Made by a program: the position numbers and the translations under genes. A DNA stretch of 35,262 bases from the IMG/VR virus record IMGVR_UViG_3300045988_103437; one strand, 5' to 3'. Numbering within the stretch: the first letter of the stretch is position 1; the number at the start of each line of letters is the position of its first letter. The notes below the pieces were generated by a model. It did no database searches, had not been told where the DNA came from, and was given only the letters and a program-made list of their open reading frames with translations. Positions 1,280 to 17,692 of this stretch are shown in pieces. This DNA is from a virus.

Positions 1280-1527
1280 GAAATTACCCGACACGCAGAA
1301 AACTGCTCAAAGATGTTAAGGAGTTAAGAGAAGAAAACAAAAATCTTAAAAATGAGTTAAAAAAAGCTCGCCTTGATAAATCCCAAGCCGAAGAAAATAG
1401 CACAAACGCTCAATATGCATTAAGAGGTTATAAAAACGAGAATACTAAACTCTGTGAAAAACTTTCAATGTATGAATCAGCAGAGGCAGAATCCTTCGGT
1501 TTTGAATGTGTGGGTGTCCGCAAATGA
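1270..1527 (+). CDS. Hypothetical coiled-coil protein.
   Basis: It has an AAGGAG RBS and a K/E/L-rich, heptad-like sequence. Confidence 0.55.
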   Translation: MWLRNYPTRRKLLKDVKELREENKNLKNELKKARLDKSQAEENSTNAQYALRGYKNENTKLCEKLSMYESAEAESFGFECVGVRK

Positions 1528-1772
1528 AAAAAGGGACAACAGTCGAAAGCGGATATGATGTTGAGGGACGCTGGCATTTGAAGCTCAGAAAAGCCAAAGG
1601 CAAGTTTACGCTCGACGAAATAATTGAAGCTGCGAAAGAATGGGAAGAAGATTACTACGCCGTGATAATTAAAGCGATGGGCGATGAAACTGCACAGTAT
1701 TACGATGACGACCTTGAGGGGGATTACGTAACGCTATATCGTGCTACAGATTTTATCAGCAAAGAGGTGTAA
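1524..1772 (+). CDS. Hypothetical early protein.
   Basis: ATG 1524 overlaps the upstream TGA stop (ATGA coupling). The track ORF starts at 1506. Confidence 0.55.
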   Translation: MKKGTTVESGYDVEGRWHLKLRKAKGKFTLDEIIEAAKEWEEDYYAVIIKAMGDETAQYYDDDLEGDYVTLYRATDFISKEV

Positions 1773-1775
1773 CCG

Positions 1776-2051
1776 ATGAAAAGATTAACTTTAAATCAAG
1801 ACAGTGAAATCAAGGTTAAGGACATCTACGGCAAAACACACGATTGTAAAGATGTTCCGCATGAGTTTTACGGTTGTATTCGCAAACTTTACGACTATGA
1901 GAATACAGGATACACAATTGATTTTATCGACAACATACCGAAGATACTCGAGGATATGCGTGAACGCTTATTAAATCCATCGGCTGTAAACATTAAAGCG
2001 TGTTTGCATATGATTGATTACATTTTAAACACAAAAGAAAAAGACCGTTGA
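1776..2051 (+). CDS. Hypothetical early protein.
   Basis: A GAGGTG RBS precedes ATG 1776. Confidence 0.55.
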   Translation: MKRLTLNQDSEIKVKDIYGKTHDCKDVPHEFYGCIRKLYDYENTGYTIDFIDNIPKILEDMRERLLNPSAVNIKACLHMIDYILNTKEKDR

Positions 2052-2075
2052 TTGCTTGCACTACAATCAACGGTC
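2043..2075. promoter_or_regulatory. Perfect 11-bp inverted repeat (hairpin) at the end of the 1776..2051 gene.
   Basis: The arms are gaccgttgatt (2043-2053) and aatcaacggtc (2065-2075), with an 11-nt loop and no following T-tract. Confidence 0.5.
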
Positions 2076-2087
2076 CGCCGATAACAC

Positions 2088-2139
2088 AAGGCTATCTGCT
2101 GTACAAATATTGTTCAACAACATTATAGCAGATAGCCTT
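2088..2139. promoter_or_regulatory. Perfect 13-bp inverted repeat just upstream of the ParB-like gene.
   Basis: The arms are aaggctatctgct (2088-2100) and agcagatagcctt (2127-2139), with a 26-nt spacer. TTGACA directly follows the right arm. Confidence 0.5.
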
Positions 2140-2163
2140 GACAAAATCAAGGAGATTATAAAA

Positions 2164-3489
2164 ATGGAAAGAAAATCTAAATTACAGATGATAGCAGTGG
2201 ACAAACTGCACCCACATCCACAGAACCCTCGAAAGGTTATCGGCGATGTGACGGAGCTTGCGGAATCTATCAAGGCGAACGGAATTTTGCAGAACCTTAC
2301 CGTTGTGCCAAACAATGATAACGAGGATGATTTTACTGTTATAATTGGACACCGTAGGCTTGCGGCCGCAAAGCAGGCAGGATTAACTGAACTGCCTTGT
2401 GCAATCGTAGAAATGACGGAGAAAGAACAGCTGTCAACGATGCTCACCGAGAATATGCAGCGGTCAGACTTGACTGTATACGAAGAGGCTAAGGGCTGTC
2501 AGCTCTTGCTTGACCTCGGTGATACGGTTGCAGAGATTGCCGAGAAAACAGGATTTTCAGAAAGCAAAATAAGGCGGAGAGTAAAACTCTGTGAGCTTGA
2601 TGAAGAAGCTTTCAAAGAAAGCCAGCTCAGACAACCCACATTGGCAGACTACGAGCGTCTGAATCAGATTAAGAATATTGATGCAAGAAATGAATTGCTT
2701 AAATCAATCGGAACGAATAATTTCGACAATCTTTTGTATTCTGCCGTGCAAAAGCAGGAGACAGATGAAGAAAAAGAAAAAATTGAAAAGCTCTGTCTTG
2801 AACATGGAATGACTAAAGTGCAGAAATATAACGAAATTCCAGACAATTACAAAGACACAGGAATATTCGCGCTCAAAGATTTGATCGGTAAAGACTTTGC
2901 GGACGGCAGGAACAGATATTTTTATTTTGCTTACGGCTCAACCGTCTACATTTACGCAGAAGCATTGGAAAAGCAGGAAAAGAACGATGCCGAAGAAGAA
3001 AAGCGAAAGCTTGAAGAGCAGAGATGGGATGAGCTTGAAGAACAGACGGAAGAAATAGACGAACGCTGTGAGGCTCTCAGAAGAGACTTTATGCTTGATG
3101 CGAATTTCAATGACAGCAACAAGAAGCAGGAGCTTGTGAAATTTATAGTCGCCCAATTGGCGGCAGGCGTCATTAACAAGGCATACAGATTTGGCGAAGT
3201 AGTCGAGAATCAAGATGATGAAAACACGGACAGCTACATCAACGAACACTGGAGCGATAACAGCGGTAGAATGCTTATGGCGACGGCATACGCTTTGTGC
3301 CAAAGAACTTATGAAAATTTAAGCTTTATTTATGTAGACTATAACAGCAAAACGATCAGCCGAAAAAACAGCCCGGATTTAAACAAATTTTATGCTTTAC
3401 TCTGCAAACTCGGCTATGTGATGAGTGACGAAGAGATACAGCTCCGTGACGGCACACATCCGATTTTTACCTCCGGTGAAGTCAAATGA
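2164..3489 (+). CDS. ParB-like N-terminal nuclease/partition domain protein.
   Basis: ATG 2164 follows a GGAG RBS. The ParB N-domain pattern is IAVDKLHPHPQNPRK...GILQNLTV...IIGHRRLAAAKQAG. The track extension from 2056 runs through the inverted repeats. Confidence 0.8.
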   Translation: MERKSKLQMIAVDKLHPHPQNPRKVIGDVTELAESIKANGILQNLTVVPNNDNEDDFTVIIGHRRLAAAKQAGLTELPCAIVEMTEKEQLSTMLTENMQRSDLTVYEEAKGCQLLLDLGDTVAEIAEKTGFSESKIRRRVKLCELDEEAFKESQLRQPTLADYERLNQIKNIDARNELLKSIGTNNFDNLLYSAVQKQETDEEKEKIEKLCLEHGMTKVQKYNEIPDNYKDTGIFALKDLIGKDFADGRNRYFYFAYGSTVYIYAEALEKQEKNDAEEEKRKLEEQRWDELEEQTEEIDERCEALRRDFMLDANFNDSNKKQELVKFIVAQLAAGVINKAYRFGEVVENQDDENTDSYINEHWSDNSGRMLMATAYALCQRTYENLSFIYVDYNSKTISRKNSPDLNKFYALLCKLGYVMSDEEIQLRDGTHPIFTSGEVK

Positions 3490-3490
3490 A

Positions 3491-3522
3491 AGAACATTTT
3501 GCTGATGTCCGCAAAATGTTCT
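3491..3522 (+). terminator. Perfect 12-bp stem-loop directly after the ParB-like stop. It may be a terminator or an RNA-processing structure.
   Basis: The arms are agaacattttgc and gcaaaatgttct with an 8-nt loop. There is no U-tract, so termination is uncertain. Confidence 0.35.
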
Positions 3523-3544
3523 TGTGCTGAAAATTTAATAAGTT

Positions 3545-3741
3545 AATCACACAACTGCACTTGTGAGATTATATATATCTCATTTTATACCTTCTTTCTT
3601 TAATTGTATTTTCGGGTAGGTGCAGATGCCCGAACAAATTAACCGATAACAAGCTCTGCACAGCTTGTTATATAAAACTCGTTTACTCCTCTTTAAATAA
3701 ATTCTGACATTGAAAGCGGAGCAGGTGCAGATGGTCCGCTT
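3545..3741 (+). ncRNA. Tandem pair of two-hairpin modules (H0-H1 and H2-H3). This is a candidate structured RNA or ssDNA element.
   Basis: H0 is 3545-3570 and H2 is 3646-3671; both have 10-bp stems and a CTGCAC loop. H1 is 3611-3634 and H3 is 3714-3741; both have 6-7-bp stems and loops containing AGGTGCAGATG. The stems differ in sequence while the loops are identical. Confidence 0.6.
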
Positions 3742-3752
3742 AGGTGAAGAAA

Positions 3753-3989
3753 ATGGATGTAAACATTATCACAATAAAATTTAAAGACGGTTCAAGCATA
3801 TATATTGATGATGTTTCTGATTATGCCATAAATAACAATGTTGTCAAAGTTAATAAAAATGGATATAATCAGTTTTTTAATTTCGACGAAGTTAGATATA
3901 TCGGAAGAACATTTGATTTAGAACCTGAAATATACAATGCAATGAAGAGGTGGGACAACTCCAATGTTTCACATTCAAAACTGCTATAA
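3753..3989 (+). CDS. Small hypothetical protein at the start of the AT-rich island.
   Basis: ATG 3753 follows an AGGTGA RBS. The track start, GTG 3744, lies inside that RBS. Confidence 0.55.
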   Translation: MDVNIITIKFKDGSSIYIDDVSDYAINNNVVKVNKNGYNQFFNFDEVRYIGRTFDLEPEIYNAMKRWDNSNVSHSKLL

Positions 3990-4075
3990 GAAGGTATGAA
4001 TCTATGCAAGAAGAGGCGCTTTTACAAATCATTAAAAAACAGCTTAATGAGATCGTAAGGTGGTAGATTTACAAA

Positions 4076-5263
4076 ATGTCGAGGCTAAATAAAACATGGA
4101 CGGCCGATGAAATAGATTATCTTGTATCTGCTTGGGGCAACGTTAATATGGCCACTATAACAAAACACCTTGATAGATCCGAATGTGCGATAAGGCTAAA
4201 AGCCGGTAAGTTAAACTTAGGACCTTTCTTGACTAATGGCTATAGATACATCACAATAAGCAATCTTTATAAACTCATTCGTCCAAACACTTCTGCCAGT
4301 TATCTAAAAACATCGTGGGTAAAAAATAGGAATCTGCCTACTCACAACATATCAAGAAGTTCAAAAACAAATTTCATCGTTGTTTACATAGATGAATTTT
4401 GGATGTGGGCAGAGAAAAATCAATATTTTTTAGATTTTTCGAAACTTGAAAGATATCAATTAGGACCTGAGCCTGATTGGGTAAACCCAAAACGAGAGGC
4501 AGACATATTAAGGAACAGTCTTATTAAAGCAACTCCGTGGACAAACAGAGAAGATAACCTTCTCAAAGAATTGCTTGTAAAGCAAAAGTATGGTTATAAA
4601 GAACTATCACAAATATTGTGCCGTAGCGAAGGAGCTATACAGCGCAGAATTAATGACCTAAACATCAAATACCGACCGATAAAAGCTGATAACCATCAAA
4701 AATGGACTGAATCAGAATACACTTTACTTGGCGAAATGATTAAATGCGGAAGCAAATATGAAGAAATATCCGACAGAATCGGTCGATCAGTTAAGGCTAT
4801 CAGAGGACGTGTGTTCGATAAGTATCTCACGGAAAATCTTGATAAAGTGCGAAATTACATAGGCAACGGAAACTTTGGAGACGGAACGCCTGACAAGCCG
4901 TTAAAATACAAGCGACTTATGTCGAACGAAGAAAAAAACAAAGCTAATCTATTGTTATCAATCATCGCAGGAGATTTACGTTGTGTTGCAAAAATGAATT
5001 CAAATGTTGATGAGGAATACAGTAAATATTGGCAAAAGGATATGTGCTTGAATTGGAGCAATATCAAAGGCTGTATTGCATGCGAAAAAGATTGCGACAG
5101 TTGCACATCATTTAAAAGAATACCCGTACAACATTGTAAGCGTTGTGGAAAAGATTTTTTTGAACGAAAAAGTGCTGATTTTTGTAGCGATTGCAGGTCA
5201 GCTCGCCTATATCAAGCGCGAAAAAAATATGCAATACTGCAACAAAAGCAAAACCGAAAGTAA
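4076..5263 (+). CDS. Protein with three Myb/SANT-like repeats and a Cys-rich C-terminus, likely DNA-binding.
   Basis: Three internal repeats share WT-x2-E-x2-L...RS-x2-AI-x2-R (WTADEIDYL.., WTNREDNLL.., WTESEYTLL..). The C-terminal about 60 aa carries more than 10 Cys (CIACEKDCDSC...CKRCG...CSDC). Confidence 0.65.
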   Translation: MSRLNKTWTADEIDYLVSAWGNVNMATITKHLDRSECAIRLKAGKLNLGPFLTNGYRYITISNLYKLIRPNTSASYLKTSWVKNRNLPTHNISRSSKTNFIVVYIDEFWMWAEKNQYFLDFSKLERYQLGPEPDWVNPKREADILRNSLIKATPWTNREDNLLKELLVKQKYGYKELSQILCRSEGAIQRRINDLNIKYRPIKADNHQKWTESEYTLLGEMIKCGSKYEEISDRIGRSVKAIRGRVFDKYLTENLDKVRNYIGNGNFGDGTPDKPLKYKRLMSNEEKNKANLLLSIIAGDLRCVAKMNSNVDEEYSKYWQKDMCLNWSNIKGCIACEKDCDSCTSFKRIPVQHCKRCGKDFFERKSADFCSDCRSARLYQARKKYAILQQKQNRK

Positions 5264-5276
5264 AGAAGGCGTATCT

Positions 5277-6284
5277 ATGGATGATAAAACAGAATTCGTA
5301 CGAATGGCAACAACACAATGCCTAAAGTATATGTCTGTGAATGAGGCAAACAAGGTTGAGCAAATTTTGTCAGTCTTGTTGACAAAATATTCTCTAAAAA
5401 AAGAAACCTACGCTTTATCCACCGAAACAGTTACTCCGAATCAAAAATTAGTAAATACTTTTTTAGCCATTAAAAAAATTAGTGGTTTAACTGACAAAAG
5501 TCTAAAAGCTTATAACAATGAAATACAAATGATGCTTAAAGCAATAAATAAGCCTATCGCAGACATTAAGGTTAATGATATTCGTGCATACCTTGCTTTT
5601 GAACAATTAAATAAAAATGTATCAAACAGTTATCTTGATACAAAATTAAGATACTTAAAATCATTTTTTAAAACACTGAGAATTGAAGGCTACATACCAA
5701 ATGATCCGGCAGAAAAAATCACAAAAATAAAAGCTGAAAAGGTAATCAGAAAGCCGTTTACACCGATTGAAACCGAAAAAATTAGAGATGCTGCCGGAAA
5801 AGATTTGAGGTTGAAGGCAATCATAGAATTTCTATTATCGACAGGATGTCGAGTTACAGAAGTGGAAAATGCAAATCGCAGTGACATTAAAGATGATAAA
5901 CTGATTATCACAGGCAAGGGTAACAAACAAAGATACGTATATCTTAACGCACAAGCAAAACTTGCTTTAGAAAAATACGAAAATACGAGATCAGACACCA
6001 ACAATGCTTTGTTCGTTAGTAAAATTAAAATAAAAGGTGAATACAAAAGGCTTGAAAAAGGACAAATAGAAAATATCATTCGTGAGCTTGGTAAAGACAT
6101 TGGAATTGAAAATTGTCACCCACATAGATTCAGAAGAACCATGGCTACCGATGCCCTTAGAGCCGGCATGCCAATTGAACAAGTATCACTAATGCTTGGC
6201 CACGAAGAACTGACTACAACACAAATATACGCAAGATCTGATGAATCTGATGTTTATCAGGCACATCAAAAATATGTTAGATAA
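5277..6284 (+). CDS. Tyrosine recombinase, XerC/XerD- or Cre-like. This is a second recombinase, distinct from the attP-linked integrase.
   Basis: ATG 5277 follows an AGAAGG RBS. The catalytic region is GCRVTE...HPHRFRRTMAT...LGHEELTTTQIYAR. The track extension from 5076 overlaps the upstream gene. Confidence 0.85.
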   Translation: MDDKTEFVRMATTQCLKYMSVNEANKVEQILSVLLTKYSLKKETYALSTETVTPNQKLVNTFLAIKKISGLTDKSLKAYNNEIQMMLKAINKPIADIKVNDIRAYLAFEQLNKNVSNSYLDTKLRYLKSFFKTLRIEGYIPNDPAEKITKIKAEKVIRKPFTPIETEKIRDAAGKDLRLKAIIEFLLSTGCRVTEVENANRSDIKDDKLIITGKGNKQRYVYLNAQAKLALEKYENTRSDTNNALFVSKIKIKGEYKRLEKGQIENIIRELGKDIGIENCHPHRFRRTMATDALRAGMPIEQVSLMLGHEELTTTQIYARSDESDVYQAHQKYVR

Positions 6285-9280: not shown

Positions 9281-9621
9281 TAAGGCAATATTCTTGCCGG
9301 CTGCAAAATCTTAAAGGAAATTCAAATCAAGTTAATCCTATATTAAAAAAGTAATCAAAGCGACGACTTCCGTTTTGATTAAGCTGTTACAAAAGAATGC
9401 ACCAAAAATCAAACACACAATTGCAGCGGCAAGGTTGCACAGAGCAGTAACTCAAGTGGTCAGATTGGGTTACTGCATATTTATATCATCTGATTTTTTA
9501 ATGAGAAAATAGAATAATAAATAGTCACAAATAAAAGGGTTGAAATACCCTTTAACTATCCCGCTCAAGGAATTAATTAAGTGACCGTTTTAGTTTTTAC
9601 ATATATAATGGGAAGTTTAAT

Positions 9622-10359
9622 ATGTTTACATACAAGTGTGAAATTAAATCAGGCCCTTTGCTTGAGGTTAAATATTACAAGTCCATTCGCAAACGTAATA
9701 AGAAAAATCTTGCTCGACAAATCAATCAATCCAGAACAAACGAAAAGCAAGCCAAAGCAAACCGTATCAGAGGAGAACAACACACGCAGAGGCTTATCCT
9801 CTGCAACTTTTCTGAGGGCGACTGGTTCGCAAGATTCTCCGCTCCGTTTGGCGAGTTTACCGAAGATGAATTTGAGAGGGTTGTCTCAAATTTTTTTAAA
9901 AGAGTAAAACGCAGAACAGAGAAAAAACAAATCAAGTTTAAATACATCGGGTTCTGCGAATGCGGCAAACTCGGAAAGAATTGGCATTTGCATATTGTGA
10001 TTGAGGATTGCGCAAGAGAAATATTAACAAAATGCTGGCCGTGGAAAAACGGAATCAATTTCACTCCGCTCTACCAAGACGGAAACTATGCTGACCTTGC
10101 AAAATACATACGCAAAGATGTCAATGGTAAGAAGCGCTTGAAAACATCTCGCAATCTCAATAAGCCTGAGGTCAAAGTTGTTGAAGGAAAAAAACGAGAA
10201 TACAGAAAACTCGAACGAGGTGAGGCTTTGCCTTGTCCCGAAGGATATTATTTTTACAAAGACGAAATGTGGATAAATGACTTCACGGGTGCGTCTTTTC
10301 ATTTTACTTACTTGGCCAATAGCCATAAACACAAGAAAATCGGAGGTGCAAGGATTTGA
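9622..10359 (+). CDS. HUH-superfamily rolling-circle replication initiator (Rep)-like protein.
   Basis: The HUH motif is NWHLHIVIE, followed by the Tyr motif YADLAKYIRKD (YxxK). There is a possible motif 1 at WFARFSAPF. A 341-nt non-coding region lies upstream. Confidence 0.6.
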   Translation: MFTYKCEIKSGPLLEVKYYKSIRKRNKKNLARQINQSRTNEKQAKANRIRGEQHTQRLILCNFSEGDWFARFSAPFGEFTEDEFERVVSNFFKRVKRRTEKKQIKFKYIGFCECGKLGKNWHLHIVIEDCAREILTKCWPWKNGINFTPLYQDGNYADLAKYIRKDVNGKKRLKTSRNLNKPEVKVVEGKKREYRKLERGEALPCPEGYYFYKDEMWINDFTGASFHFTYLANSHKHKKIGGARI

Positions 10360-17358: not shown

Positions 17359-17692
17359 CATAGATTTTTTAACCTTTAATGACGGTGTTGCGAAAATCTA
17401 TGAAACCGACGAAAACGATGACATCATCGCCGACAGCCTGAAAAAATATCGTTTTGGCAACGAAAAAATCGGTGTAACTCGTTTTTATGGTGCAAAGCAG
17501 AACGATATTGAATTGTCAAAAGTTATCCATGTTCACAAAGATGAAACTTTGAGAACTGATATGGCGGTTATCATTGACGGCACAAGGTTTAAAATCGAAC
17601 AGATACAGCATGACAAAAGTAAAAATCCCCCTTGCTCGATTGTGAGCCTGTCACAGAGGGGACTGTATGAGGGTGGTGCAGATGTTTTTTAA
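17342..17692 (+). CDS. Head closure / head-tail adaptor protein.
   Basis: Assigned from synteny and size. Confidence 0.55.
   Translation: MILKNNIDFLTFNDGVAKIYETDENDDIIADSLKKYRFGNEKIGVTRFYGAKQNDIELSKVIHVHKDETLRTDMAVIIDGTRFKIEQIQHDKSKNPPCSIVSLSQRGLYEGGADVF

What the first reader, a model, noticed from the sequence alone, without database searches (positions are those of the whole stretch)
3545..3741. Tandem two-hairpin modules with covarying stems and conserved, mutually complementary loops
The 254-nt gap after the ParB-like gene holds four stem-loops.
- H0 (3545-3570): arms aatcacacaa/ttgtgagatt with one A-A mismatch, loop CTGCAC.
- H1 (3611-3634): arms ttcggg/cccgaa, loop tAGGTGCAGATG.
- H2 (3646-3671): arms ataacaagct/agcttgttat, perfect, loop CTGCAC.
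- H3 (3714-3741): arms aagcgga/tccgctt, loop gcAGGTGCAGATGg.

The arrangement reads as a diverged duplication of about 100 nt (H0+H1 and H2+H3). The stem sequences are unrelated yet still pair, while the loops are identical. That is the classic signature of selection on structure.

The CTGCAC loop is the exact reverse complement of the GTGCAG core in the partner loop, so a 6-bp kissing interaction is possible within or between units.

Alternative readings:
- The 11-mer resembles an SD-spacer-AUG. It opens mini-ORFs at 3626-3649 (MPEQINR) and 3731-3784 (17 aa, overlapping the next gene start out of frame). GGTGCAGATG also recurs at 17675-17684 as a real RBS and start. The element could therefore be a translational switch.
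- As ssDNA hairpins, the loops could be nick or recognition sites for the HUH Rep at 9622.
- They could be sites or a guide-like RNA for the adjacent tyrosine recombinase.

I do not recognise this as any known RNA family.
Basis: seen in the sequence. Interest (0 to 1): 0.8.

Follow-up and report, generated by a model that had tools for sequence, protein, structure and literature searches.

The report
Kissing-hairpin element in gut phages
The gap after the ParB-like gene holds two copies of a conserved two-hairpin module, absent from Rfam, whose loop tips stay exactly complementary across many related gut phages, which points to a structured, probably RNA, control element in front of the phage's replication genes.

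Summary
All four hairpins sit at the stated coordinates, and a fifth, window-specific hairpin lies at 3490-3523.

The unit is hp1 (CTGCAC hexaloop), a G-poor spacer, then hp2 (GTGCAG hexaloop). It occurs in 1-3 copies in more than 150 related IMG/VR contigs and in prophages of Ruminococcus-like Clostridia. Orientation is always the same, at the junction between early genes and the VRR-NUC...Rep module.

- **Stems:** they covary strongly.
- **Loops:** they also covary. Four alleles were found: CTGCAC/GTGCAG, CCGCAC/GTGCGG, CCGTGC/GCACGG (also with the order swapped) and CCGCGC/GCGCGG. Within a unit the two loops are exact reverse complements.
- **Exceptions:** rare, and found in second copies or as single-base changes, two of three giving G.U.
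- **Strand:** the spacer has 6.9% G on the + strand against 20.9% genome-wide. Inner-stem G.T outnumbers A.C 18:6. Both point to a folded + strand.

The best reading is a cis-acting sense-strand RNA closed by a 6-bp loop-loop kiss that gates expression of the downstream module. That function is inferred, not shown. A single-stranded-DNA role, as a lagging-strand origin for the rolling-circle Rep, is not excluded.

The mini-ORF, Rep nick-site and recombinase-site readings are poorly supported. The element matches no Rfam family.

The parts
3490..3523 (.). Extra 13-bp-stem hairpin immediately after the ParB-like stop codon (3489). It is not part of the conserved unit and is an insertion specific to this window and L001.
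   Evidence: I4; -16.4 kcal/mol, z -6.8. It is absent at the same place in relatives, where the stop codon is followed by about 17 nt and then hp1.
3545..3570 (+).
   Evidence: Relatives carry compensatory stem variants AATCACACAA/TTGTGAGATT and AATCACGCT/AGCGAGATT.
3571..3610 (+). Unit A spacer: TATA-rich start followed by a CU-rich, G-poor run (CCTTCTTTCTTT).
   Evidence: 2% G in 41 nt.
3611..3634 (+).
   Evidence: -11.7 kcal/mol on +, -7.0 on -. Relatives have variants GGGCAT..ATGCCC that close on the hexaloop.
3646..3671 (+).
   Evidence: I13; z -4.5. A compensatory GCT/AGC to GTT/AAC change occurs in L023.
3672..3713 (+). Unit B spacer. Its core GTTTACTCCTCTTTAAATAAATTCTGACATT varies at only one position (T/G) among 35 distinct B-type units and is G-poor.
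3714..3741 (+).
   Evidence: -14.2 kcal/mol on +, -10.2 on -. Variants GGAGTAT..ATACTCC are fully paired.
3742..3755 (+). Shine-Dalgarno AGGTGA (3742-3747) and probable ATG (3753-3755) of the downstream 79-aa ORF. The first gene after the unit begins 1 nt after hairpin 2.
   Evidence: In relatives the gene at this position differs, which marks a mosaic junction.

Best explanation
Each roughly 100-nt unit is a structured element that works as a folded single strand of + polarity, most likely as RNA within the sense transcript that runs from the early genes into the next gene block.

Hairpin 1 and hairpin 2 each present a GC-rich hexaloop. The two loops pair with each other in a 6-bp kissing interaction, closing the G-poor, unpaired spacer into a loop.

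The unit sits at the head of the variable and replication module (...VRR-NUC, Rep, HNH, terminase). I infer that it gates how much transcription or expression passes from the early operon into that module, as an attenuator or antiterminator-type leader. In several lineages hairpin 2 is itself a terminator-like hairpin just ahead of the next gene's ribosome site.

**Shown:** the hairpins, their conservation, stem covariation, loop-loop covariation, the strand asymmetry and the constant genomic position.

**Inferred:** that the folded molecule is RNA rather than ssDNA, that the loops kiss in cis, and the regulatory output.
For: **Structure.**
- 22 of 22 modelled pairs show double-sided changes.
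- 90.4% of cells are canonical pairs, against 70.1% in shuffles (0 of 500 reach the observed value) and 26-41% when partners are slid.

**Loop-loop pairing.** Alleles found:
- CTGCAC/GTGCAG in the window group.
- CCGCAC/GTGCGG.
- CCGTGC/GCACGG, and the same pair with its order swapped in L318.
- CCGCGC/GCGCGG in L324 and L325.

**Tests that did not pre-select complementarity.**
- A scan for the hairpin-1 stem with any loop gave 12 of 12 CCGCAC sites with GTGCGG downstream. For CTGCAC it gave 22 of 25 with GTGCAG downstream. The three exceptions are single-base loop variants.
- L314 was found by position alone.
- Scanning 3.7 kb of gaps in distant relatives gave 6 complementary hexaloop pairs against 0.015 expected.
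- Among the 120 hairpins returned with the hairpin-2 stem and arbitrary loops, only the one genuine unit (L404) has a complementary partner hairpin upstream.

**Direct pairing rather than a shared reader protein.** L324 carries two alleles in one genome, each matched within its own unit.

**+ strand polarity.**
- Spacer G is 6.9% against 20.9% for the window's + strand, while C is normal. Only 0.25% of 50-nt windows in positions 1-28,000 are that G-poor.
- In the inner stem, G.T outnumbers A.C 18:6 on the + strand.
- Hairpin 2 is 4-5 kcal/mol more stable on the + strand.
- Two of the three kinds of single-base loop variant give G.U in the kissing helix on the + strand.

**Position.** The order is always early genes, then unit(s), then variable genes, then VRR-NUC...Rep. 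This holds even where the structural module differs.

**Terminator-like hairpin 2.** It is followed by a T-run and then SD-ATG in D-type and other lineages.
Against: - No transcript data exist, so RNA is not demonstrated.
- Everything that argues for + polarity would equally fit + strand ssDNA displaced during rolling-circle replication.
- Hairpin 2 is not terminator-like in the window itself (TCCGCTT then AGGTGAAG) or in some relatives.
- In L318 a unit precedes a tRNA gene rather than a protein gene, so no single output (termination, translation or stability) fits all cases.
- Spacer cores vary at no more than one position within each unit type, which hints at a sequence-specific partner I did not identify.
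- Units A, B and C have unrelated stems yet share one loop allele within the lineage. This suggests a constraint beyond cis complementarity.
- The 100% pairing of the kissing helix is by construction, because units were collected by exact complementarity.
- Hybrid or flipped hairpins exist at low frequency (L005, L029, L045, L101/L142, L025/L027).
Confidence: 0.4

Rival explanations
1. The element is a single-stranded-DNA structure. On the + strand displaced by the rolling-circle Rep, the two hairpins (with or without the loop contact) would form a lagging-strand (single-strand) origin, as the sso elements of RCR plasmids do.
For: - Every unit-bearing phage whose sequence reaches far enough encodes a PF23343 Rep on the same strand.
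- Orientation relative to rep is constant.
- In distant members a unit lies 25-300 nt upstream of the putative double-strand origin next to rep (L447, L324).
- G-depletion and G.T tolerance fit + strand ssDNA as well as RNA.
- A loop flip (L025/L027) and crossovers inside loops are DNA-level footprints of hairpin formation.
- A unit precedes a tRNA gene as readily as a protein gene.
- From my own knowledge: ssoA origins carry a conserved 6-nt loop (CS-6) and are orientation-specific.
Against: - Loop-loop pairing has no precedent that I know of in sso elements, and a 6-bp DNA kiss is weak.
- Units lie 1.3-6 kb from the putative origin in most genomes.
- They repeat at cassette junctions directly in front of gene starts.
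- Hairpin 2 followed by a U-run makes sense only for RNA.
- Some Rep-encoding relatives (L322, L448) show no unit within reach.
- No RSB or CS-6 sequences were seen.
- All Rep-linked loci come from related phages, so the co-occurrence is confounded by ancestry.
Confidence: 0.2
2. The element is a trans-acting RNA specificity system, of the immunity or incompatibility type. One hairpin, released from the transcript, would kiss the other hairpin on incoming or sibling transcripts and shut off the replication module. This would resemble P4 CI RNA with seqA/seqC or P1/P7 c4 with its targets, and the loop alleles would define specificity groups.
For: - The complementary elements lie on the same strand, upstream of replication genes.
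- Discrete matched alleles differ between lineages. Units with unrelated stems (A, B, C) share one allele within a lineage, whereas units with homologous stems (B against D) differ between lineages.
- Hairpin 2 is terminator-like and lies next to the ribosome site.
- The P1/P7 and P4 precedents are from my own knowledge.
Against: - There is no evidence for a promoter active in lysogens or for processing signals.
- Rfam c4 and related models do not match.
- L324 has two different alleles in one genome.
- The phage already has a CI-like repressor with an ImmA-type peptidase.
- A 6-nt specificity code is short.
Confidence: 0.12
3. The loops are nick or recognition sites for the HUH Rep at 9622, making the element a double-strand origin.
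For: - Conserved loops on variable stems are typical of HUH origins (my own knowledge).
- Crossovers falling exactly in the loops (L005, L029, L045, L101/L142) resemble Rep-mediated recombination.
Against: - L324 has one Rep but two loop alleles.
- L318 has the loop order swapped, which reverses the strand on which each hexamer is displayed.
- A separate hairpin with covarying stem and a near-constant loop (TGAAAT in the window, L259 and L318; related loops such as TGAAAG, TGAAAA and TGAAATT elsewhere; L447 has a different hairpin), followed by a conserved box (ATCCyGCTCAAg.AATTAATTAAGTGAC), sits directly upstream of the rep gene wherever I read that gap (window, L259, L318, L320, L322, L324, L447).
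- The two loops of a unit are complementary rather than identical on one strand.
Confidence: 0.03
4. The hairpins are sites or a guide RNA for the neighbouring tyrosine recombinase, or an invertible switch bounded by the inverted hexamers.
For: - Each hairpin has the arm, 6-bp asymmetric centre, arm layout of a recombinase core site.
- The hexamers are inverted repeats.
- Recombinase genes are often among the neighbouring cargo.
- Module junctions and hybrid arms occur at the loops.
Against: - Arm sequences are unrelated between sites, so one recombinase could not read them.
- No inverted a+rc(b) junction was found in 235 loci.
- Int2, the Myb-like gene and ParB are absent near many units.
- Spacers of 22-84 nt are too short for synapsis.
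- Arm covariation is unexplained by dsDNA binding.
Confidence: 0.03
5. The element is a translational switch built on the SD-spacer-AUG look of AGGTGCAGATG and its mini-ORFs.
For: - AGGTG plus ATG is present in both copies in the window.
- Hairpin 2 abuts the real ribosome site of the next gene.
Against: - The ATG is CTG or ATA in close relatives, and the flanks are unrelated in distant ones. Examples are CAGGTGCAGCTG, TATGTGCAGATA, TGTGTGCGGACA and TTTTGCACGGAAAG.
- No ORF is conserved on either strand.
- One unit precedes a tRNA gene.
Confidence: 0.02

Closest known systems
Same-strand antisense immunity RNAs of P4 (CI RNA with seqA/seqC) and P1/P7 (c4 RNA with a2/b2 targets). Comparison from my own knowledge.
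   Same: - Complementary RNA segments are encoded on one strand of one transcript.
- They are placed ahead of replication or lytic genes.
- Heteroimmune relatives differ by matched compensatory changes.
- The output is premature termination or a translational block.
   Different: - No sequence or structure similarity, and no Rfam c4 hit.
- Here the pairing is only 6 nt, between the apical loops of two plain hairpins.
- No processing signals or lysogenic promoter were found.
- Function is untested.
Kissing-loop antisense control of plasmid replication (ColE1 RNA I/RNA II, R1 CopA/CopT, pT181 and pIP501 countertranscripts). Comparison from my own knowledge.
   Same: - Pairing between 6-7-nt GC-rich hairpin loops.
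- Association with a replication module, including rolling-circle replicons.
- In the attenuation systems, the terminator sits just ahead of the rep ribosome site.
   Different: - In those systems the partners are transcribed from opposite strands, so complementarity is automatic.
- Here both loops are on the same strand and covary independently.
- No countertranscript promoter was found.
Single-strand origins (ssoA, ssoU, ssoW) of rolling-circle plasmids. Comparison from my own knowledge.
   Same: - Orientation-specific hairpins.
- A conserved 6-nt loop element.
- Location upstream of the double-strand origin of an HUH Rep replicon.
   Different: - No RSB or CS-6 sequence.
- Two separate hairpins with mutually complementary loops.
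- Repeated at gene-cassette junctions of a 35-kb dsDNA phage.
Cis-acting antitermination hairpins of lambdoid phages (HK022 putL/putR; lambda nut boxB with flanking rut sites). Comparison from my own knowledge.
   Same: - Two diverged copies per genome with covarying stems.
- Placed between immediate-early genes and replication genes.
- A G-poor stretch next to the hairpins, as at the rut sites of tR1.
   Different: - put stems are adjacent and do not kiss.
- boxB is a single hairpin read by the N protein.
- No sequence similarity.
- The host is a Firmicute.
phi29 pRNA and other RNAs with covarying complementary loops. Comparison from my own knowledge. Kissing-loop RNA assemblies ROOL and GOLLD are described in PMC12286853.
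   Same: Loop-loop complementarity is preserved by covariation between relatives while the sequences drift.
   Different: - pRNA loops pair between molecules to build a ring on the packaging motor.
- Here the context is an intergenic leader.
- The size and architecture are unrelated.

Membership tests
Any Rfam 15 RNA family | Covariance-model score at or above the family's gathering threshold. | tested here: not met
   No match in the whole window at gathering score. At E<=10 on 3440-3800 the best match is ncr1015 on the - strand, at 34.9 bits against a threshold of 60. That match is driven by the window-specific 13-bp hairpin and AU-rich sequence.
Kissing-loop structured RNA (generic kind) | Two hairpins supported by compensatory changes. 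| tested here: met
   16 of 16 stem pairs show double-sided changes. 86-87% of cells are paired, against 26-41% in slid controls.
Kissing-loop structured RNA (generic kind) | Loop-loop complementarity maintained by covariation. | tested here: met
   Four alleles plus one order swap, always exact complements within a unit. Observed 6 pairs against 0.015 expected in shuffled gaps.
Kissing-loop structured RNA (generic kind) | The element is transcribed and folds as RNA. | not testable with these tools
   Only indirect evidence is available: sense orientation, G-poor + strand spacer, G.T:A.C of 18:6, and a terminator-like hairpin 2 in some lineages.
HUH Rep double-strand origin (nick-site hairpin) | One loop or nick sequence per Rep, displayed on a fixed strand and usually next to rep. 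| tested here: not met
   Two alleles occur with a single Rep in L324, and the loop order is swapped in L318. A better candidate hairpin plus conserved box lies directly upstream of rep (window 9534-9600 and relatives).
Tyrosine-recombinase core site or invertible switch | Conserved arm sequences bound by the recombinase; both orientations or recombinant junctions observed; recombinase gene linked. | tested here: not met
   Arms are unrelated between sites. No inverted junctions in 235 loci. The recombinase is not consistently adjacent.
Intrinsic (Rho-independent) terminator | GC-rich hairpin followed directly by a U-run. | tested here: inconclusive
   - Hairpin 2 meets the scan criteria in L259.
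- By eye, hairpin 2 of L248, L318 unit 2 and L320 is followed by a short T-run. The L318 scan flagged only a sub-hairpin there.
- Hairpin 2 does not meet the criteria in the window, where only the - strand of H2 is flagged, nor in L143 or L324.
Sigma-70-type promoter | -35 and -10 hexamers at 16-18 nt spacing. | tested here: not met
   No promoter-like site inside the units of the window, L318 or L447. Only two weak 9-of-12 matches appear in L259.
Leader peptide or upstream mini-ORF switch | Conserved start codon and reading frame. | tested here: not met
   The ATG in the loop is replaced by CTG or ATA. No conserved ORF on either strand.
RCR single-strand origin (sso) | Orientation-dependent conversion of ssDNA to dsDNA; RSB and CS-6 motifs for ssoA. 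| not testable with these tools
   Orientation and linkage to Rep are compatible. No plasmid DNA match was found. The motifs were not recognised by eye.
ParB parS site | Site co-occurs with its ParB. | tested here: not met
   Units with other loop alleles occur in phages with no ParB_N protein within 6-10 kb.

The most novel reading that the evidence does not exclude
The hexaloop pair may be a short, evolvable address code. Matched loop alleles would then define which RNAs (or displaced DNA strands) can dock onto each other, giving these abundant gut phages a nucleic-acid-only specificity system. That system would control entry into the rolling-circle replication module, either as immunity or incompatibility between co-resident relatives or as a kissing-dependent priming signal. 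Because the units sit at cassette junctions and show crossovers inside the loops, they may also serve as the joints at which gene cassettes are exchanged.
Probability: 0.2. Interest if true: 0.85.

Novelty: new variant of a known kind. Interest (0 to 1): 0.7.

Why it matters
The element is small, sharply defined and very common. Its Rep-linked phage group has more than a thousand member sequences in the closest Rep protein cluster, drawn from public metagenome assemblies and NCBI and JGI records. It lies in prophages of Ruminococcus-like Clostridia, for which almost no gene-regulation or replication signals are known.

The loop-loop covariation gives a directly testable structural hypothesis: break the complementarity, then restore it.

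If the element gates the replication module, it would be a handle on lysis-lysogeny or replication control in uncultivated gut phages. It would also be a compact natural kissing-loop part for RNA engineering. If it works as ssDNA, it would be a new type of lagging-strand origin in a tailed phage.

Tried and rejected
- **DNA similarity.** The region has no match in GenBank phages or plasmids.
- **Rfam.** No hit at gathering score. At permissive thresholds only the sub-threshold ncr1015 hit appears. ncr1015 is an uncharacterised Bacillus sRNA (PMC2965217), and the hit rests on the window-specific hairpin, so I rejected it.
- **Literature.** Searches for the hexamers and for phage kissing loops found nothing relevant.
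- **Inversion switch.** No inverted junctions in 235 loci.
- **Promoter in the spacer.** By eye there are TATAWA after hairpin 1 and TGACWT before hairpin 2, but in the wrong order and spacing. The scans are negative.
- **Cis anti-SD pairing.** I checked whether the CU-rich spacer pairs with the downstream ribosome site. No consistent complementarity appeared, and the CU-rich run is absent in L320 and L324 unit 2.
- **Small ORFs on the - strand.** MRYI* occurs only in A and C types and is not conserved.
- **f1 gpII nick-site resemblance** (TTCTTTAAT in spacer A). This was a lead from memory, is not conserved across unit types, and was dropped.
- **Partner protein.** ParB, the Myb-like protein and Int2 are not consistently linked. 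Small conserved early ORFs gave no family hits.
- **Myb-like relatives in reference genomes** (L150-L154) carry no unit.
Full report
**1. What is in the window**

Reading 3300-4000 confirms the four hairpins exactly as described.
- H0 3545-3570, loop CTGCAC.
- H1 3611-3634, loop containing GTGCAG.
- H2 3646-3671, loop CTGCAC.
- H3 3714-3741, loop containing GTGCAG.

Each hairpin is more stable than its dinucleotide shuffles, with z from -3.3 to -4.5. The gap as a whole gives z -3.6 on the + strand and -5.4 on the - strand.

A fifth hairpin with a 13-bp stem at 3490-3523 follows the ParB-like stop codon. Relatives lack it, so it is not part of the element.

The surrounding genome is a temperate siphovirus.
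- The lysogeny module is on the - strand at 28.4-34.8 kb. It comprises an integrase, a CI-like HTH protein and an ImmA-type peptidase.
- On the + strand the order is: early genes, the ParB-like gene (2056-3489), the gap, a 79-aa ORF, a Myb-like protein, a second tyrosine recombinase, an HTH protein, VRR-NUC, HNH, YopX, an unknown 242-aa gene, a PF23343 rolling-circle Rep (9622-10359), HNH, TerS and TerL.

**2. The unit is conserved and modular**

Protein-anchored searches of IMG/VR returned 80 loci for ParB, 69 for the Myb-like protein and 80 for Rep.

All 80 ParB loci carry at least one CTGCAC...GTGCAG pair 64-87 nt apart, directly downstream of ParB. Some have one unit and some have two. L072 has a further copy 3 kb upstream.

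The unit is hairpin 1 with an exact hexaloop, then a spacer, then hairpin 2 presenting the complementary hexamer.
- Hairpin 1 comes in three stem versions: AATCACACAA/TTGTGAGATT, AATCACGCT/AGCGAGATT and ATAACAAGCT/AGCTTGTTAT.
- Hairpin 2 comes in three stem versions: TTCGGG../..CCCGAA, AAGCGGAG../..TCCGCTT and ATCTCAGAC../..GTCTGAGAT.
- The three bases on either side of GTGCAG pair in many variants (CAG/CTG, CAT/ATG, TAT/ATA). Hairpin 2 is therefore also a hexaloop hairpin, usually with a G.A next to the loop.

**3. Stem covariation**

I extracted 8+6+8 nt around each hexaloop for 57 distinct units. I joined them with artificial 12-nt anchors so that MAFFT would stay ungapped.

On this alignment all 16 stem pairs show changes on both sides.
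- 86-87% of stem cells are canonical pairs.
- For the whole structure 90.4% are canonical, against 70.1% in column shuffles (0 of 500 reach the observed value).
- Sliding the partners by 1-3 columns gives 26-41%.

**4. Loop-loop covariation**

This is the key result. The allele pairs are:

| Loop of hairpin 1 | Loop of hairpin 2 | Where found |
|---|---|---|
| CTGCAC | GTGCAG | Window group (ParB loci) |
| CCGCAC | GTGCGG | L143-L145; 12 of 12 loci in an IMG/VR scan; L310-L313 and L317; the compact L320 unit with unrelated stems |
| CCGTGC | GCACGG | L314; L324 unit 1; both L447 units |
| GCACGG | CCGTGC | L318, two units flanking a tRNA-Met gene (order swapped) |
| CCGCGC | GCGCGG | L324 unit 2 and L325 |

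The common pattern is C-Y-G-Y-R-C. Three of the six positions vary, always with the matching change in the partner loop.

The 100% pairing reported for this helix is by construction, because I collected units by exact complementarity. The unbiased support is as follows.
- A scan for the hairpin-1 stem with any six loop bases returned only two loop alleles among genuine sites. Each had its complement downstream, apart from three sites carrying single-base variants.
- L314 was found by its genomic position before its loops were compared.
- In 3.7 kb of intergenic gaps from distant relatives there are six complementary hexaloop pairs, against 0.015 expected from shuffling.
- Of the 120 hairpins returned with the hairpin-2 stem and arbitrary loops, only the one genuine unit has a complementary hairpin upstream.

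The exceptions are informative.
- GTGTAG (L004, L116, L308) leaves a G.U in the kiss.
- CTGCAT in hairpin 1 (L240) leaves a terminal U.G.
- ATGCAG (L033, L035) gives a terminal C.A.
- L025 and L027 have the 14-nt loop of hairpin 2 of unit B exactly inverted between unchanged arms.
- Three of these four kinds of exception (GTGTAG, ATGCAG and the loop flip) lie in the second unit of a two-unit genome whose first unit is intact; I did not check this for the CTGCAT variant in L240.

L324 matters most. It has one genome, one Rep and two different alleles, each matched within its own unit. That argues for direct pairing rather than a shared reader protein.

**5. Which strand, which molecule**

The loop arrangement reads the same on both strands, but the rest of the unit does not.
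- The spacer has 6.9% G and 16.6% C on the + strand. The window's + strand has 20.9% G. Only 0.25% of 50-nt windows in positions 1-28,000 are that G-poor.
- In the five pairs nearest the loops, single-sided changes give G.T 18 times and A.C 6 times on the + strand. In the outer pairs the counts are 14 and 20.
- Hairpin 2 is 4-5 kcal/mol more stable as + strand RNA than as - strand RNA.

All neighbouring genes are on the + strand, and the unit has the same orientation relative to them in every locus. A folded + strand is therefore well supported.

That it is RNA rather than displaced + strand ssDNA is an inference. It rests on the sense orientation, the RNA-typical hexaloop kiss (predicted duplex energies -7.8 to -10.8 kcal/mol), and the fact that hairpin 2 is followed by a T-run and then SD-ATG in several lineages. 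Examples:
- L259 GGAGCAGGTGCGGCTGCTCT+TTTTTTAAGG, scored as terminator-like.
- L248, L318 unit 2, L320 and L314.

**6. Genomic position**

Local tblastn and gene tables show one constant order: early genes, then unit(s), then a variable set, then VRR-NUC, the unknown gene, Rep, HNH and terminase.
- The variable set includes the 79-aa ORF, a methylase-like gene, a PAPS-reductase-like gene, the Myb-like gene, recombinases, YopX, dUTPase and a tRNA.
- The order holds even where the structural module is of another type (Terminase_6N and P22-type portal in L317, L320, L324 and L447).
- ParB, the Myb-like protein and the second recombinase are next to the unit only in some lineages.
- Extra copies bracket cargo: L072; L312; L318 with its tRNA; L447 and L324, each with a second unit 25-300 nt upstream of the rep control region.
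- The gene directly after hairpin 2 differs between otherwise close relatives.
- Hybrid hairpins show crossovers falling inside the loops: L045 in hairpin 1; L005, L029 and L101/L142 in hairpin 2.

The units are therefore also mosaic joints.

**7. Alternatives tested**

- *Mini-ORF or RBS mimic.* The ATG is not conserved, and no ORF is conserved on either strand.
- *Rep nick site.* This is contradicted by L324 and L318. There is also a better origin candidate next to rep: a hairpin with covarying stem and a near-constant loop, followed by a conserved box. In the window (9534-9600) it reads AAAGGGT-TGAAAT-ACCCTTT, and in L259 GCAGGGGC-TGAAAT-GCCCCTGC. The loop is again TGAAAT in L318, and L320, L322 and L324 carry related loops (TGAAAG, TGAAAA, TGAAATT). 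L447 has a different hairpin (GCGGCGATCTGCCGC) ahead of the same box.
- *Recombinase site or inversion.* Arms are unrelated between sites. No inverted junction appears in 235 loci.
- *Promoter.* Scans are negative.
- *Known RNA family.* None matches.
- *ParB parS.* ParB is absent from the other lineages.

**8. Mechanism**

The shown parts are two hairpins whose loops must stay complementary, joined by a linker kept free of G, on the sense strand, at the entry to the replication and middle gene block.

I commit to the following reading. A cis-acting RNA is closed by a 6-bp loop-loop kiss and sets how much expression passes from the early operon into that block. Hairpin 2 acts as a terminator or ribosome-site-proximal hairpin of lineage-dependent strength. 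Hairpin 1 modulates it through the kiss. My confidence in the whole statement is about 0.4:
- about 0.85 that the two-hairpin, kissing architecture is real and selected;
- about 0.65 that the molecule is RNA.

A trans-acting, allele-specific variant of the P4 CI or P1 c4 type is a sub-hypothesis. It is suggested because units with unrelated stems share one allele within a lineage, while homologous units differ between lineages.

The main rival is an ssDNA role as a lagging-strand origin for the Rep. It fits the Rep linkage, the orientation, the proximity to the rep control region in L447 and L324, and the DNA-level footprints (loop flip, loop crossovers). It does not explain the U-runs or the placement at gene starts.

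Two things remain unexplained. Spacer cores vary at no more than one position within each unit type. And the hexamer keeps C, G and C at positions 1, 3 and 6.

**9. Novelty**

Cultured phages hold only 26-32% identical Rep relatives: Clostridium perfringens phiSM101 and PhiS63, Butyrivibrio phage Arawn, and a Clostridium scindens phage. C. perfringens 38-40-kb plasmid records also carry such relatives. No DNA match to the element was found in either collection.

Host clues point to Clostridia.
- The closest Rep cluster is labelled as a Caudoviricetes metagenome-assembled sequence.
- The 68%-identical cluster (P0005) is named from Ruminococcus sp..
- The P0005 loci (L310-L313) lie in 67-115-kb assembly contigs, one of them from NCBI assembly GCA_037335905.1, consistent with prophages in Ruminococcus-like genomes.
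- The Myb-like relatives come from Hungatella and Faecousia MAGs.

The element is a new family within the known kind of kissing-loop structured nucleic-acid elements.

Noticed in passing
window 9534-9600 (also L259:3125-3190, L318:9715-9775, L320:8995-9060, L322:9905-9965, L324 about 9955-10005, L447:9910-9965): Directly upstream of the rep gene, wherever I read that gap, lies a hairpin with a covarying stem and a near-constant loop: TGAAAT in the window, L259 and L318, and TGAAAG, TGAAAA or TGAAATT in L320, L322 and L324. It is followed by a conserved box ATCCyGCTCAAg.AATTAATTAAGTGAC and a -10-like TATAAT. L447 has a different hairpin (GCGGCGATCTGCCGC) ahead of the same box. This is a good candidate for the Rep double-strand origin and rep promoter.
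   Followed up: partly
window 3490-3523: A 13-bp-stem hairpin follows the ParB stop codon. It is an insertion specific to this window and L001. Its tail is more U-rich on the - strand. It drives a sub-threshold Rfam hit to Bacillus sRNA ncr1015 on the - strand (34.9 bits against 60).
   Followed up: partly
L025:3541-3570 and L027 (same element): Hairpin 2 of unit B has its 14-nt loop exactly reverse-complemented between unchanged arms (AAAGCGGA-CCATCTGCACCTGC-TCCGCTTT). This is a palindrome-spacer flip, so this unit's loops are no longer complementary. Unit A is intact.
   Followed up: partly
L045:4394 (hairpin 1); L005:4486, L029:4503, L101/L142:about 2080 (hairpin 2): Hybrid hairpins have a 5' arm from one variant and a 3' arm from another. 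The crossovers fall inside the 6-11-nt conserved loop, and some delete the interval between two units.
   Followed up: partly
L318:8239-8314: A tRNA-Met (CAT) gene sits between two units in a relative whose Rep is 65% identical. The units bracket the tRNA like a cassette.
   Followed up: partly
L318:535-888; L324:4620-4970 and about 5600-6066: These are long non-coding stretches of purine-rich, roughly 30-nt repeats (AAGGCACAGC...GCAGTAAAGT...) in the early regions of distant relatives. The gene caller places doubtful - strand ORFs on one of them. They could be iterons or a repeat RNA.
   Followed up: no
window 2043-2075 and 2087-2140: Two strong inverted repeats lie at the very start of the ParB-like gene: 12-nt perfect arms, and 17-nt arms that are 94% complementary. 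They could be a ParB-related site or a regulatory hairpin.
   Followed up: no
window 1506-1772 (88-aa ORF): This small acidic protein is 87-91% identical in most lineages (66% over a partial match in L299), where neighbouring proteins are only 50-80% identical. It has no family hit and its function is unknown.
   Followed up: no
window 9622-10359 (Rep): The nearest cultured relatives (about 31% identity) are in Clostridium perfringens phiSM101 and PhiS63 and in 38-40-kb C. perfringens plasmid records. This suggests the Rep family belongs to phages that can persist as episomes.
   Followed up: no
window 4076-5263 and 5076-6284: The Myb-like ORF and the second tyrosine-recombinase ORF overlap by about 190 nt as listed (TTG start). 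The true recombinase start is probably further downstream. In some relatives two recombinase genes lie in tandem (L143, L313).
   Followed up: no
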